From assembly GCF_003334785.1 (NCBI RefSeq), contig NZ_QOWV01000008.1: DNA of 64,000 nucleotides, one strand, 5' to 3'. This DNA comes from Escherichia coli (lineage in GTDB: Bacteria; Pseudomonadota; Gammaproteobacteria; Enterobacterales; Enterobacteriaceae). This document shows positions 50,246 through 54,901 of this stretch, one piece after another. Made by a program: the position numbers and the translations under genes. The notes under the pieces are model-generated. The model worked only from the letters and a program-made list of their open reading frames with translations, had not been told where the DNA came from and made no database searches. The number at the start of each line of letters is the position of its first letter. Position 1 is the first letter of the stretch.

Positions 50246-51493
50246 TTAGCCAAATTTAGGTAACACGTTAAAGACGTTGCCGAACCAGCACAAAATCACG
50301 GTTATACCAAAGAGAATGACAATCGCCGGAATAAGATTGCCGCCCCAGACCGTGAACATCTGATTGGGAAACTTCTTGCGAGCTTTGATTGCAAGCACTG
50401 CGGGAATAATGACCGCCCAGATGGTGGCGCACAGCCCGGCACCGCCGATCCCGTAAATAAAGCCGTTCGGGAAGATCAGATACAACAACGCAGGTGGCAG
50501 GAAGGTTAACAGCACGGTTTTGAAACGCCCGCCGTGGGAGTTATCAATCTTAAACAGGTCCGCCAGATAATCGAACAACCCCAGCGTGACACCAAAGAAC
50601 GAACTGGCAACAGCTAAGTTAGAGAACACCAGCAGGCAAAACTCGATAATGCCGTGCTGTTTGGTGCCGAGGAACGATTTCACCAGCGAATCAACGTTGC
50701 CGCCTGAGGAGATAATCGCCTTAAAGCTTTCTCGCGGAATATTCCCCATGGTGCAATAGAGCCAGAAGAGATAAATCACCAGCGCCAGCAGCGAACCAAA
50801 TACCACGCTTTTGATTAACTTATCTTTGCGTTTTCCATAGCAAATAATCAGGCTGGGAATATTGCCGTGGAAACCAAATGACGCCAGACACACCGGCAAA
50901 GCCATAAAGATATACGGGAAGTAAGACGTTCCCGCAGTGGAGCTGGTGGCGTCGCGCAGAATGGAGTAATCGACCTGGAAGAAAAAAGAACCAAACACGA
51001 TCACAAAGGAGATAATCTTCAGCCCGAGGAACAATGAGGTAATACGACTGGCGGCTAACGAACTTAACCACAATACGCTGGCAACGAAAGTGGCTGTGCA
51101 GATCCCGACAATACGTGGATTAGCGTGATAACCCAAATTCATTGATATCGTTTCACTAATGATCGCACCATTAGCAGAGATATAGGCATAAGTGAGGATA
51201 TAGAGAACGAAGGCAACGGTAATACCGCTGATAATGTTCCAGGTGTTACCGATTAAATCTTTGGTGATGGTGTTAAAACTGGAGCCGACGGGATAATTTA
51301 AATTTGCTTCTAATAACAATAACCCGGAATGAAGCATTGAAAACCAGGCAATGATAAGGATAAAGGCACCCCAGAAAAACCAGGCACCGGCAAGATCAAC
51401 AGGTAAAGCAAACATACCTCCACCAATTACTGTACCTGCTATAACCATAACACCCCAAAATGCAGAGTGCTTTTTTTCAGCTTGATCAGTCAT
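50246..51493 (-). CDS. tnaB: low-affinity tryptophan permease
   Basis: 415-aa polytopic ORF; downstream of tnaA in same orientation. Confidence 0.94.
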   Translation of the reverse strand: MTDQAEKKHSAFWGVMVIAGTVIGGGMFALPVDLAGAWFFWGAFILIIAWFSMLHSGLLLLEANLNYPVGSSFNTITKDLIGNTWNIISGITVAFVLYILTYAYISANGAIISETISMNLGYHANPRIVGICTATFVASVLWLSSLAASRITSLFLGLKIISFVIVFGSFFFQVDYSILRDATSSTAGTSYFPYIFMALPVCLASFGFHGNIPSLIICYGKRKDKLIKSVVFGSLLALVIYLFWLYCTMGNIPRESFKAIISSGGNVDSLVKSFLGTKQHGIIEFCLLVFSNLAVASSFFGVTLGLFDYLADLFKIDNSHGGRFKTVLLTFLPPALLYLIFPNGFIYGIGGAGLCATIWAVIIPAVLAIKARKKFPNQMFTVWGGNLIPAIVILFGITVILCWFGNVFNVLPKFG

Positions 51494-51583: not shown

Positions 51584-52999
51584 TTAAACTTCTTTAAGTT
51601 TTGCGGTGAAGTGACGCAATACTTTCGGTTCGTACGTAAAGGTTAATCCTTTAATATTCGCCGCGTTCTCTTTCACATGTTTAAAGGCTTCAATAATGAA
51701 GTCCATATGTGTTTGAGTATATGTTGCGCGCGGAATGGTTAAACGCAGCAGTTCAGCCGGGCATGGCAGTTGTTTACCGGTTTTCGGATCGCGGCCTAAC
51801 AGGAAAGAGCCAATTTCTACCGCACGGATACCGGCGACTTTATACAGCTCGCAGGCCAGCGCCTGTGCCGGGAACTGGTCTGCCGGGATATGCGGCAACA
51901 GTTTACCGGCATCAACGAATGCCGCGTGACCGCCCGCCTGCTGGCAGACAACGCCAATCTCTTCCAGACCATCGACCAGATACTGTACCTGCGCGATACG
52001 ATAAGCCAGCCAGTCGAGATTCATGCCGTCATACAGACCTACCGCCAGACGCTCCATCGCGCCGCCTTCCAGGCCGCCATATGTCGGGAAGCCTTCCTGC
52101 ACCACGCAAAGGGTTCTGCACTCGGTGTACACATCAAAGAAGCTGTCGTCTTTCATGCACAGCAGGCCGCCCATCGGCACCATCGCATCTTTCTTGGCGG
52201 ACATCGCCAGCATATCGGCATATTTGTAGGTTTCGCGGGTGATCTGCTCGATGGTCCAGTCTTTGTATTCTGCTTCACGCTGCTTGATGAAATAGGCGTT
52301 TTCAGCAAAGCGCGCGGAGTCCATTACCACCGGAATATCGTATTTCTTCGCGATGCTGTACATCGCTTTTAAGTTTGCCAGTGAAACCGGCTGACCACCT
52401 GCAGAGTTACTGGTGATGGTTGCAACGATATACGGCACGTTATTCGGACCAACTTCTTCAATACCGCGTTCTAATCCCTCAAGGTCAAAGTTGCCTTTAA
52501 AGTCGTAACGCACGCCCGTATCGAAGGCTTCTTTGATATAGACGTTACGCACGGTACAGCCGTTGATCTGGCTATGGCCCTGCGTGGTATCAAAGAAATA
52601 GTTAGAGAACGCCACCATTTTGCTGCGATCCAGGCCTTTTTCCTGCTCGCGTTTTTTAATCAGTACCGGAATATAGATTTGCTCTGCGCCACGGCCCTGG
52701 TGAGTCGGAATGGTGTATTGATAACCAAAGATATTTTTCACTGACTCGGCTAACGCATAGTAGCTACGACTGCCGCTGTAGGCTTCGTCGCCGCGCATCA
52801 TCGCAGCCTGCATGCTCTGCGTCACCGCCCCGGTGCCGCTGTCGGTCAGTAAATCGATAAACACATCTTCGCTATCCAGCAGGAACGGGTTCATACCGGA
52901 TTTAATAATTGCCTCTTCACGATAAGCGCGAGTGGTACGTTTTACTGGCTCAATAACACGAATGCGGAACGGTTCAGGGAGATGTTTAAAGTTTTCCAT
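51584..52999 (-). CDS. tnaA: tryptophanase (tryptophan indole-lyase)
   Basis: ORF 51584..53014; start taken at [18 protein letters not shown] (471 aa); PLP-dependent beta-eliminating lyase. Confidence 0.95.
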
Positions 53000-53219
53000 T
53001 ACATAATCCTTCATTTATTTTAATTACAGTGATCCCTGTGAATATTACATCTGCTATACCGATTAATTCGCCAGATATATATGCAAGCACCATCATTTAC
53101 TAAAACAAGTAAATAAACGAGAGATGACCTTTGCAAAAGGCAAAATTAAGATATAGCAAACAAATAGATCACATTGAATCTAATCGGTTTGGCTCTGGTG
53201 ATGGCTACAGAAGGGCAAA
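53000..53219 (-). promoter_or_regulatory. tnaC-tnaA spacer (Rho-dependent attenuation region)
   Basis: About 220-nt untranslated spacer between leader peptide stop and tnaA start; role from established tna operon model. Confidence 0.7.
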
Positions 53220-53294
53220 TCAAGGGCGGTGATCGACAATTTTGTTGTCAATATTGAACCATTTTGAGGTCACACATATATGTAAGATATTCAT
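53220..53294 (-). CDS. tnaC: tna operon leader peptide TnaC (24 aa)
   Basis: Minus strand atgaatatcttacatatatgtgtgacctcaaaatggttcaatattgacaacaaaattgtcgatcaccgcccttga gives MNILHICVTSKWFNIDNKIVDHRP*; single Trp codon at position 12. Confidence 0.95.
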   Translation of the reverse strand: MNILHICVTSKWFNIDNKIVDHRP

Positions 53295-53460
53295 AATGCA
53301 CTTATCCTCGCAAGACACGAGGCTACATTATTACACTCAGAGTTTTTGTCTATTCTGAAATTGTTTAAATGTGAATCGAATCACAATCGTTCGGGGAGCA
53401 ATATTAAATGCTTTTTTTAAAGATTATAAATTACGTAAGAATTTTAATGTTTAAAAAAAG
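53295..53460 (-). promoter_or_regulatory. tna promoter region (catabolite-activated)
   Basis: AT-rich region upstream of tnaC on the minus strand; CRP site not precisely assigned. Confidence 0.5.
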
Positions 53461-53536
53461 GGTTGAGGAATAACAGGAGTGGTAACAATGAAGCGAAGCC
53501 GCATCTGACAGTCAGAATGCGGCTTCGTAAGCGCGG

Positions 53537-54901
53537 TTACTTACCAATACAGAAGCTGGAGAAAATCCGCCCCAGCAGGTCGTCTGAAGTAAATTCCCCG
53601 GTGATTTCGCTTAAGTTCTGCTGTGCCAGACGCAACTCTTCCGCCAGCAGTTCACCTGCCCAGGCTCCCAACAGTTGCGCTTTGCCCTGTTGTAGATGTT
53701 CCGCTGCCTGTTCCAGCGCCTGTAGGTGGCGACGACGCGCCAGGAAGCCGCCTTCCATGTTGGTGTCAAAGCCCATGCTCTGTTTGAGATGGTTACGCAG
53801 CACGTCCACGCCTTCACCAGTCCTTGCCGAGAGACGAATTAACGCGTGACCGTTCACTTCACTCATTCCCAGCGTTTCGCCGGTGATATCGGCTTTATTG
53901 CGCACCACGGTGATCGGCAGTTTCGCTGGCAGACGGGCAATAAATTCCGGCCAGATCTCTGCCGGATCCACGGCGTCTGTTGTGGTGCCATCGACCATAA
54001 ACAGCACGCGGTCGGCCTGTTCAATTTCCTGCCACGCGCGCTCGATACCAATACGTTCTACTTCGTCACTGGCTTCACGTAGCCCGGCGGTATCGATGAT
54101 ATGCAGCGGCATTCCGTCAATGTGGATATGCTCACGCAGCACGTCACGCGTAGTTCCGGCGATATCGGTTACGATTGCCGCTTCACGCCCCGCCAGCGCG
54201 TTTAACAGGCTCGATTTACCGGCGTTAGGACGTCCGGCAATCACCACTTTCATCCCTTCGCGCAACAAACTACCCTGACGTGCTTCAGCACGCACTGCAT
54301 CAAGATCGGCAATAACGTCATTGAGCTGGGCTTCAATTTTTCCGTCGGAGAGGAAATCGATCTCTTCATCGGGGAAATCAATTGCCGCTTCGACGTAAAT
54401 GCGCAAGTGGGTGAGGGCTTCTACCAGATGATTAACCCGTGCGGAGAATGCGCCTTGCAGCGAGTTAAGTGCCGAACGGGCCGCCTGTTCCGAACTGGCG
54501 TCGATAAGATCGGCAATCGCCTCGGCCTGGGCTAAGTCAAGTTTATCGTTAAGAAACGCGCGTTCGGAAAACTCACCAGGGCGAGCAATCCGCAGGCCGG
54601 GAATGGTCAGAATGCGTTTTAACAGCAGGTCGAGGATCACCGGACCGCCATGACCTTGCAGTTCCAGCACATCTTCGCCGGTGAACGAGTTCGGGCCAGG
54701 GAACCATAGCGCAATCCCCTGATCGAGCACGCTGCCGTCGGCGTCTTTAAACGGAAGATAATCGGCGTAGCGCGGCTTAGGCAGTTTACCCAGCACGGTT
54801 TCGGCAACTTCACGGGCTTTGAAGCCGGAGATGCGCAGGATGCCAACGCCGCCACGTCCCGGAGGCGTGGCCTGGGCTACGATAGTGTCATTATCGCTCA
54901 T
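53537..54901 (-). CDS. mnmE: tRNA modification GTPase MnmE (TrmE)
   Basis: 454-aa ORF; G1 motif GRPNAGKS; C-terminal CIGK. Confidence 0.96.

What the first reader, a model, noticed from the sequence alone, without database searches (positions are those of the whole stretch)
53000..53460. tna operon leader peptide tnaC with single Trp codon and long spacer
A 24-codon ORF (MNILHICVTSKWFNIDNKIVDHRP) absent from the ORF track lies about 220 nt upstream of tnaA. This is the ribosome-stalling leader that controls Rho-dependent termination in the spacer. It is a reminder that regulatory micro-ORFs are invisible to length-filtered ORF calling.
Basis: partly seen in the sequence, partly recalled or inferred. 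Interest (0 to 1): 0.3.

Follow-up and report, generated by a model that had tools for sequence, protein, structure and literature searches.

The report
E. coli tnaC tryptophanase leader peptide

Summary
Minus-strand 53294..53220 translates to MNILHICVTSKWFNIDNKIVDHRP* with one Trp codon. The gap to the tnaA ATG at 52999 is exactly 220 nt.

The peptide passes the curated NCBIfam tnaC_leader model: 44.3 bits against a cut-off of 23.55. It is 24/24 identical to the TnaC chain of PDB 6i0y. RefSeq annotates tnaC at these positions. The region occurs in 5,420 of 5,426 complete E. coli genomes.

The flanking genes are mnmE upstream and tnaA and tnaB downstream. A perfect CRP palindrome lies upstream. 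A C-rich, G-poor stretch sits on the stop codon. Six diverged alleles differ in tnaC only by synonymous changes, plus a TGA/TAA stop swap.

The mechanism is the published one. Tryptophan blocks RF2 release of TnaC-tRNAPro, the stalled ribosome hides the adjacent rut site, and Rho cannot terminate in the spacer.

Small corrections: the C-rich segment covers only the end of tnaC and about the first 35 nt of the spacer, and the boxA-like octamer lies inside tnaC.

Verdict: already known, low interest. The only mildly notable by-product is that about a third of E. coli genomes carry a TAA stop on tnaC.

The parts
53370..53385 (-). CRP (CAP)-binding palindrome TGTGATTCGATTCACA upstream of the tna promoter
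   Evidence: It is the only exact TGTGA-N6-TCACA match in the 64-kb window, against 0.06 expected. It is invariant in all six E. coli alleles, including the one whose upstream flank is replaced. Catabolite repression of tna is described in PMC8429421 and PMC3299997.
53327..53333 (-). Probable -10 region (TAATAAT) of the tna promoter. Transcription would start near 53318 if the leader is 319 nt.
   Evidence: This is inference from the sequence and from my memory of a 319-nt tna leader. The simple sigma-70 scan found no site on this strand, which is usual for activator-dependent promoters. This segment is the most variable part of the region between alleles: GAGTGTAATAATGT versus GAGTATTATACTGT.
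53305..53309 (-). Shine-Dalgarno-like GAGGA, 10 nt upstream of the tnaC ATG
   Evidence: Read directly from the sequence. Invariant in six alleles. Its function is inferred.
53220..53294 (-). tnaC: 24 codons plus TGA, encoding MNILHICVTSKWFNIDNKIVDHRP
   Evidence: Translation. TIGR02616 tnaC_leader 44.3 bits against a cut-off of 23.55. 24/24 identical to PDB 6i0y_7, and residues 5-24 identical to 4uy8_7. The RefSeq tnaC CDS WP_001364348.1 maps to the same bases.
53259..53261 (-). The single Trp codon (TGG, codon 12), part of the W12/D16 free-tryptophan sensor
   Evidence: W12, D16, I19 and P24 are named as the critical conserved residues in PMC10941005 and PMC3299997.
53220..53225 (-). Pro24 codon CCT followed directly by the TGA stop: the stalling site, with P-site Pro-tRNA and an RF2 stop codon in the A site
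   Evidence: Sequence. The mechanism is in PMC8429421.
53221..53228 (-). boxA-like octamer CGCCCTTG overlapping codons 23-24 and the stop codon
   Evidence: It matches 6 of 8 bases of the lambda nutR boxA CGCTCTTA. About 1.4 such matches are expected by chance in the 341 nt scanned (my arithmetic), so on its own it is only consistent with the boxA named in the title of Konan & Yanofsky 2000, which I could not read.
53186..53245 (-). C-rich, G-poor segment straddling the tnaC stop codon: the rut-site candidate
   Evidence: It has 21 C and 9 G in 60 nt. Only 1.3% of all 60-nt windows in the 64 kb, counting both strands, reach this C-minus-G excess. [quoted passage not shown] Spacer positions 1-60 have 4 variable columns among six alleles.
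53180..53195 (-). Complement of Spot 42 sRNA nucleotides 50-64 (GAGCCAAACCGATTAG), the published Spot 42 pairing site in the tnaC-tnaA spacer
   Evidence: Duplex energy is -18.6 kcal/mol, and 1 of 1000 shuffled leaders does as well. It is the best site in the whole window. The Spot 42 sequence came from MG1655. The experiment is in PMC5748587. The site is invariant in six alleles.
53000..53219 (-). 220-nt tnaC-tnaA spacer, where the published Rho-dependent termination takes place
   Evidence: No intrinsic-terminator-like site lies in it. The predicted fold of the whole leader is no more stable than shuffles, z = -0.21. The spacer is U-rich, 37.7% T.
51584..52999 (-). tnaA, tryptophanase (471 aa from the annotated ATG)
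   Evidence: TIGR02617 1010.2 bits against a cut-off of 825.8. RefSeq annotation.
50246..51493 (-). tnaB, low-affinity tryptophan permease
   Evidence: NF007235 923.1 bits against a cut-off of 497. RefSeq annotation.

Best explanation
The ORF at 53294..53220 (minus strand) is tnaC, the cis-acting leader peptide of the Escherichia coli tnaCAB (tryptophanase) operon.

How it works:
1. Transcription starts from a CRP-cAMP-dependent promoter.
2. A ribosome translates tnaC right behind the RNA polymerase.
3. With little free tryptophan, RF2 releases the peptide at the UGA stop and the ribosome leaves.
4. This uncovers the C-rich, G-poor rut segment that straddles the stop codon. Rho loads there and terminates transcription at pause sites in the 220-nt spacer, so tnaA and tnaB stay off.
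5. With abundant free tryptophan, one L-Trp molecule binds in the exit tunnel next to Trp12 and Asp16 of the nascent peptide. Arg23 and Pro24, together with 23S rRNA U2585, keep the GGQ loop of RF2 out of the peptidyl-transferase centre, and TnaC-tRNAPro is not hydrolysed.
6. The stalled ribosome covers the rut site, and transcription reads through into tnaA and tnaB.

What is shown here: the identity of the ORF, its residues, its spacing, its gene context, the CRP palindrome, the composition of the rut-like segment and purifying selection on the peptide. What is taken from the literature on the identical sequence: Trp-dependent stalling, RF2 inhibition and Rho action.
For: - Exact translation with one Trp codon and Pro as the last codon before TGA.
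- Curated equivalog model TIGR02616 at 44.3 bits against a cut-off of 23.55. Neighbours score as tnaA (1010 bits), tnaB (923 bits) and mnmE (467 bits).
- 24/24 identity to the TnaC chain of the stalled-ribosome structure 6i0y, and 20/20 to 4uy8.
- RefSeq tnaC, tnaA and tnaB map to the same bases.
- The region is present in 5,420 of 5,426 complete E. coli genomes.
- All five other alleles compared, including ones only about 95% identical in DNA, carry the same TnaC protein accession. The six changes in sense codons are all synonymous.
- A unique perfect CRP palindrome lies upstream.
- There is no intrinsic terminator in the leader and no unusual RNA stability, as expected for a Rho-dependent rather than hairpin-based attenuator.
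- The mechanism is described in PMC8429421, PMC10941005, PMC3299997 and PMC12360218.
Against: Nothing found contradicts it. The limits are these:
- rut function and the Rho termination points cannot be read from the sequence.
- The boxA-like match is weak (6 of 8).
- The sigma-70 scan found no promoter on this strand.
- No Rfam family covers the leader. That is expected, because the sensor is a peptide and not an RNA.
Confidence: 0.98

Rival explanations
1. It is a chance micro-ORF in the 5' untranslated region of tnaA with no function of its own.
For: ORFs of 20-40 codons are abundant by chance: 83 in 5.5 kb.
Against: It passes a curated family model. It is identical to an experimentally studied and structurally solved peptide. 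Alleles at about 95% DNA identity keep the same protein, and all six sense-codon changes are synonymous.
Confidence: 0.005
2. It is a classical trp-type attenuator. In that model the ribosome senses charged tRNA-Trp at Trp codons and selects between alternative RNA hairpins, one of which is an intrinsic terminator.
For: It is a short leader ORF containing a Trp codon, upstream of tryptophan-related genes.
Against: There is only one Trp codon, not a tandem run. No stem plus U-tract terminator lies in the leader or spacer on this strand; the only two hits lie inside the mnmE 3' end. The leader folds no better than shuffles, z = -0.21. The operon is catabolic and is induced, not repressed, by tryptophan. 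The literature shows that free L-Trp, not tRNA-Trp charging, is sensed at the stop codon.
Confidence: 0.005
3. The real product is the 32-residue ORF starting at GTG 53318 (MSCEDKCIMNILH...), as the mechanical ORF caller lists it.
For: The frame is open from GTG 53318.
Against: No Shine-Dalgarno-like sequence precedes that GTG, whereas GAGGA precedes the ATG. The GTG lies at or before the expected 5' end of the transcript (from my memory of a 319-nt leader). RefSeq and the solved structures use the 24-residue form. The family profile ends at the last residue.
Confidence: 0.01

Closest known systems
E. coli K-12 TnaC / tnaCAB leader (NCBIfam TIGR02616; PDB 6i0y, 4uy8)
   Same: The peptide sequence is identical at 24/24 residues. 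The UGA stop, the 220-nt spacer, the CRP palindrome, the mnmE-tnaC-tnaA-tnaB gene order and the Spot 42 pairing site are all the same.
   Different: Nothing differs at the protein level. The DNA is 100% identical to some sequenced strains (H1 and H2).
SpeFL / speF leader (ornithine-sensing arrest peptide with Rho-dependent attenuation)
   Same: It uses the same logic: a small-molecule-dependent arrest at the end of an upstream ORF shields a rut site and prevents Rho termination (PMC12360218).
   Different: It has a different peptide family, ligand (ornithine) and release factor (RF1; PMC11890864). It is not related in sequence.
trpL leader of the trp biosynthetic operon
   Same: It is also a short leader ORF with Trp codons that controls premature termination upstream of tryptophan genes.
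   Different: From established knowledge, trpL has tandem Trp codons, senses charged tRNA-Trp, and uses alternative hairpins with an intrinsic terminator. Here there is one Trp codon, no terminator hairpin and no unusual structure, and free Trp is sensed.

Membership tests
TnaC tryptophanase leader peptide (TIGR02616) | Scores above the curated whole-protein cut-off of the equivalog model | tested here: met
   44.3 bits against a cut-off of 23.55, E = 1.1e-11, covering profile positions 1-22 of 22.
TnaC tryptophanase leader peptide (TIGR02616) | Short ORF directly upstream of tnaA, on the same strand and in the same operon | tested here: met
   tnaC is at 53294..53220 and tnaA starts at 52999, 220 nt downstream. 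tnaA and tnaB are confirmed by equivalog models and by RefSeq annotation.
TnaC tryptophanase leader peptide (TIGR02616) | Conserved Trp12, Asp16, Ile19 and Pro24, with Pro as the last sense codon | tested here: met
   W12, D16, I19 and P24 are all present, and P24 is followed by the stop. The residues are named as critical and conserved in PMC10941005 and PMC3299997.
TnaC tryptophanase leader peptide (TIGR02616) | Stop codon recognised by RF2 (UGA in K-12) | tested here: met
   TGA at 53222-53220. Some other E. coli alleles have TAA, which RF2 also reads.
TnaC tryptophanase leader peptide (TIGR02616) | Tryptophan-dependent ribosome stalling at the stop codon | not testable with these tools
   This has been shown for the identical peptide in solved stalled-ribosome complexes and in the literature. 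It was not measured for this locus.
tna Rho-dependent attenuator | rut site (C-rich, G-poor, unstructured) adjacent to the tnaC stop codon | tested here: met
   This tests composition only. The stretch 53245-53186 has 21 C and 9 G in 60 nt, in the top 1.3% of windows. No stable structure is predicted, with z = -0.21 for the leader. Rho binding itself was not tested.
tna Rho-dependent attenuator | boxA-like sequence near the end of tnaC | tested here: inconclusive
   CGCCCTTG at 53228-53221 matches 6 of 8 bases of CGCTCTTA. About 1.4 such matches are expected by chance in the region. The primary paper could not be read.
tna Rho-dependent attenuator | Rho-dependent termination and pause sites within the spacer | not testable with these tools
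   Testing this needs in vitro transcription with and without Rho, or 3'-end mapping with and without bicyclomycin. The only sequence-level support is the absence of an intrinsic terminator.
tna Rho-dependent attenuator | CRP-cAMP-dependent promoter upstream | tested here: met
   A perfect TGTGA-N6-TCACA at 53385-53370 is the only one in 64 kb, and it is invariant across alleles. Binding was not tested.

The most novel reading that the evidence does not exclude
The tnaC stop codon is polymorphic in E. coli. The TGA-type 60-mer around the stop occurs in 3,595 of 5,426 complete genomes and the TAA-type in 1,791. Trp-dependent arrest is described as inhibition of RF2, and a reference title reports that TnaC preferentially inhibits RF2. 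RF1 also reads UAA. The TAA lineages might therefore have a different basal level or tryptophan threshold for indole production. That would be a natural tuning knob for indole signalling between E. coli lineages. The window itself carries the K-12-type TGA.
Probability: 0.3. Interest if true: 0.25.

Novelty: already known. Interest (0 to 1): 0.05.

Why it matters
It matters only as a calibration point. The first-stage reader recognised a functional 24-codon regulatory ORF from raw sequence, with coordinates exact to the base. The case also illustrates that length-filtered ORF calling misses such leaders. At a 20-aa threshold the mechanical caller still mis-starts it at an upstream GTG. No new biology follows from the finding itself.

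Tried and rejected
- An Rfam scan of 52800-53700 at E <= 1 found nothing. This is uninformative, because the sensor is a peptide.
- The sigma-70 and terminator scan found no promoter on the minus strand and no terminator in the leader. I used this only as negative evidence against a hairpin attenuator.
- A full-length Spot 42 versus leader duplex was uninformative: 58 of 300 shuffles did as well. I replaced it with a test of the 15-nt segment that the paper mutated.
- I tried to read Konan & Yanofsky 2000 (PMC94583) for the mapped boxA and rut positions, and PMC6916493 for RF1/RF2 preference. Neither is held.
- Matches to the rrn-type boxA TGCTCTTTAACAA needed 5 mismatches, so I discarded them.
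- I deliberately did not spend the large protein or contig database searches or structure prediction. Identity to a solved, curated peptide made them unnecessary.

Full report
**Observation.** The minus strand of the window from 53294 to 53220 reads ATGAATATCTTACATATATGTGTGACCTCAAAATGGTTCAATATTGACAACAAAATTGTCGATCACCGCCCTTGA. It translates to MNILHICVTSKWFNIDNKIVDHRP*. The ATG is at 53294-53292, and the single Trp codon (TGG, codon 12) is at 53261-53259. Pro24 (CCT) is at 53225-53223 and the TGA stop is at 53222-53220. A GAGGA pentamer lies 10 nt upstream of the ATG. The distance from the stop codon to the annotated tnaA start at 52999 is exactly 220 nt. With the default 60-aa threshold the ORF would not be listed. 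At 20 aa the mechanical caller lists it only as a 32-aa ORF extended to GTG 53318.

**Is it more than chance?** A 24-codon ORF alone is not, since 83 ORFs of at least 20 aa overlap the 5.5 kb around it. The decisive evidence is independent of the ORF's length:
- The peptide scores 44.3 bits against the curated NCBIfam equivalog TIGR02616 (tnaC_leader), whose cut-off is 23.55.
- It is identical over 24/24 residues to chain 7 of PDB 6i0y ('Tryptophanase operon leader peptide') and over residues 5-24 to 4uy8 chain 7.
- A 591-nt query across the region matches 5,420 of 5,426 complete E. coli genomes. RefSeq annotates tnaC, tnaA and mnmE under the match. In strain 3359, which is 100% identical, the tnaC CDS maps exactly to 53294..53220 and the tnaA start to 52999.

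**Context.** The genes on this strand are:
- yidC
- mnmE (54901..53537; NF003661, 467 bits)
- tnaC
- tnaA (52999..51584; TIGR02617, 1010 bits)
- tnaB (51493..50246; NF007235, 923 bits)
- mdtL

This is the standard E. coli arrangement. Upstream of tnaC lies a perfect CRP-type palindrome, TGTGATTCGATTCACA, at 53385-53370. It is the only exact TGTGA-N6-TCACA match in the 64 kb, against 0.06 expected. This fits the catabolite repression of tna described in the literature.

**Conservation.** I aligned the window with five other E. coli alleles at 95-97% DNA identity. All carry the same TnaC protein accession, WP_001364348.1.
- Seven of the 75 tnaC columns vary. Six are third-position synonymous changes at F13, I15, N17, K18, V20 and H22.
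- The seventh changes the stop codon from TGA to TAA in two strains.
- The CRP palindrome, the 5' leader with the Shine-Dalgarno-like sequence, and spacer positions 7-58 are invariant.
- The most variable part is the segment between the CRP site and the transcription start (12 of 72 columns). It has two distinct -10-region alleles.

- The spacer as a whole is not C-rich (C 15.9%, G 17.7%, T 37.7%).
- The 60 nt from 53245 to 53186, covering the last third of tnaC, the stop codon and the first 34 nt of the spacer, holds 21 C and 9 G. Only 1.3% of all 60-nt windows in the 64 kb, counting both strands, reach that excess.
- This agrees with the published statement that the rut site lies immediately downstream of, or adjacent to, the tnaC stop (PMC8429421; PMC12360218).
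- A boxA-like octamer, CGCCCTTG (53228-53221), overlaps codons 23-24 and the stop. It matches 6 of 8 bases of CGCTCTTA. By my arithmetic about 1.4 such matches are expected by chance in the region. It is therefore consistent with the boxA named in Konan & Yanofsky 2000, which I could not read, but proves nothing alone.
- No intrinsic-terminator-like site lies in the leader or spacer.
- The 319-nt leader folds no better than shuffles: -67.8 kcal/mol against a mean of -66.7, z = -0.21. That is what a Rho-dependent, peptide-sensed attenuator predicts.
- Rfam has no match.

**Mechanism.** This part is taken from the literature on the identical sequence and was not measured here.
1. When L-Trp is low, ribosomes leave at the UGA codon.
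2. The exposed rut site recruits Rho, which terminates transcription at paused polymerase before tnaA (PMC8429421).
3. When L-Trp is high, one L-Trp molecule is bound by the nascent chain (W12, D16), 23S rRNA and uL22 K90.
4. Residues 23-24 and U2585 prevent the RF2 GGQ loop from accommodating, so TnaC-tRNAPro is not hydrolysed.
5. The stalled ribosome masks the rut site.

**An additional known element in the spacer.** The 15-nt segment of Spot 42 sRNA that PMC5748587 replaced to abolish repression (nucleotides 50-64, TAATCGGATTTGGCT, from MG1655 spf) pairs with GAGCCAAACCGATTAG at 53195-53180. The duplex energy is -18.6 kcal/mol, and 1 of 1000 shuffled leaders does as well. It is the best site in the whole window. 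It sits inside the C-rich segment and is invariant in the six alleles.

**Rivals.**
- A chance ORF is excluded.
- A trp-type tRNA-sensing hairpin attenuator is excluded by the single Trp codon, the lack of a terminator hairpin and the lack of unusual structure.
- The 32-aa GTG-initiated form lacks a ribosome-binding site. It also conflicts with the annotated and structurally studied 24-residue form.

**Comparison and novelty.** This is E. coli tnaC itself, not a relative of it. Every sequence-testable defining feature is met. The biochemical features (stalling, Rho termination) cannot be tested with these tools, but they are established for the identical sequence. The finding is already known and its interest is low.

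**A by-product.** About a third of complete E. coli genomes carry the TAA-stop allele. The TAA-type 60-mer matches 1,791 genomes and the TGA-type matches 3,595. The two queries share no 28-nt word, so the two sets should be essentially disjoint. Because arrest is described as inhibition of RF2, and UAA is also read by RF1, this could shift basal or induced expression between lineages. I did not find a held paper that tests it.

Noticed in passing
window 53220-53222 (tnaC stop); L004:419-421, L005:419-421: The tnaC stop codon is polymorphic in E. coli: TGA here and in K-12-type alleles, TAA in others. A 60-mer of the TAA allele matches 1,791 of 5,426 complete genomes and the TGA-type 60-mer matches 3,595. 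RF1 can also read TAA, whereas arrest is described as inhibition of RF2.
   Followed up: partly
window 53319-53345 (minus strand), alignment A1 columns 201-220: There are two distinct alleles of the presumed -10 region of the tna promoter, GAGTGTAATAATGT (this window) and GAGTATTATACTGT. This is the most variable stretch of the regulatory region, while the CRP site next to it is invariant.
   Followed up: no
L008:605-1302 (E. coli E70) and L009:364-1061 (E. coli AH62): IS1 insertions hit the tna regulatory region. In E70, IS1 sits inside the tnaC-tnaA spacer of an otherwise 100% identical allele. In AH62, IS1 lies between mnmE and a shortened tnaA, and the promoter and tnaC are gone. Both strains probably have altered indole production.
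   Followed up: partly
L006:1-1500 (E. coli PRO_A-1505-6W-A_ESBL): In this strain the DNA upstream of the CRP site is unrelated to the mnmE 3' end. The nearest upstream gene is a ShET2/EspL2-family type III effector toxin. The breakpoint is a few bases upstream of the CRP palindrome. In about 790 genomes the match covers less than 80% of the 591-nt query. I did not determine how many of them share this arrangement.
   Followed up: no
window 53180-53195 (minus strand): This is the Spot 42 sRNA pairing site inside the C-rich rut-like segment (PMC5748587). The Spot 42 site and the rut-like segment overlap, which suggests that Spot 42 and Hfq could also influence Rho access. The paper proposes mRNA destabilisation instead.
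   Followed up: partly
window 53494-53527: A perfect 11-nt inverted repeat, CGAAGCCGCAT / ATGCGGCTTCG, with a 12-nt loop lies just after the mnmE stop codon. No T-run follows it on the mnmE strand. It is probably the mnmE 3'-end hairpin. It varies at the base next to the inner end of an arm in other alleles (GCCGCAT versus GCCGTAT).
   Followed up: no
window 53411-53460: An AT-rich 19-nt inverted repeat, 89% complementary, lies between the mnmE 3' end and the CRP site: CTTTTTTTAAAGATTATAA / TTTTAATGTTTAAAAAAAG. Its function is unknown. It may simply reflect low-complexity AT-rich sequence.
   Followed up: no
window 52999-53014 (minus strand): The mechanical ORF caller starts tnaA five codons early at ATG 53014 (MKDYVMENF..., 476 aa). 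RefSeq and the TIGR02617 profile support the ATG at 52999, giving 471 aa. The AGGA of the earlier codons serves as the tnaA ribosome-binding site.
   Followed up: yes
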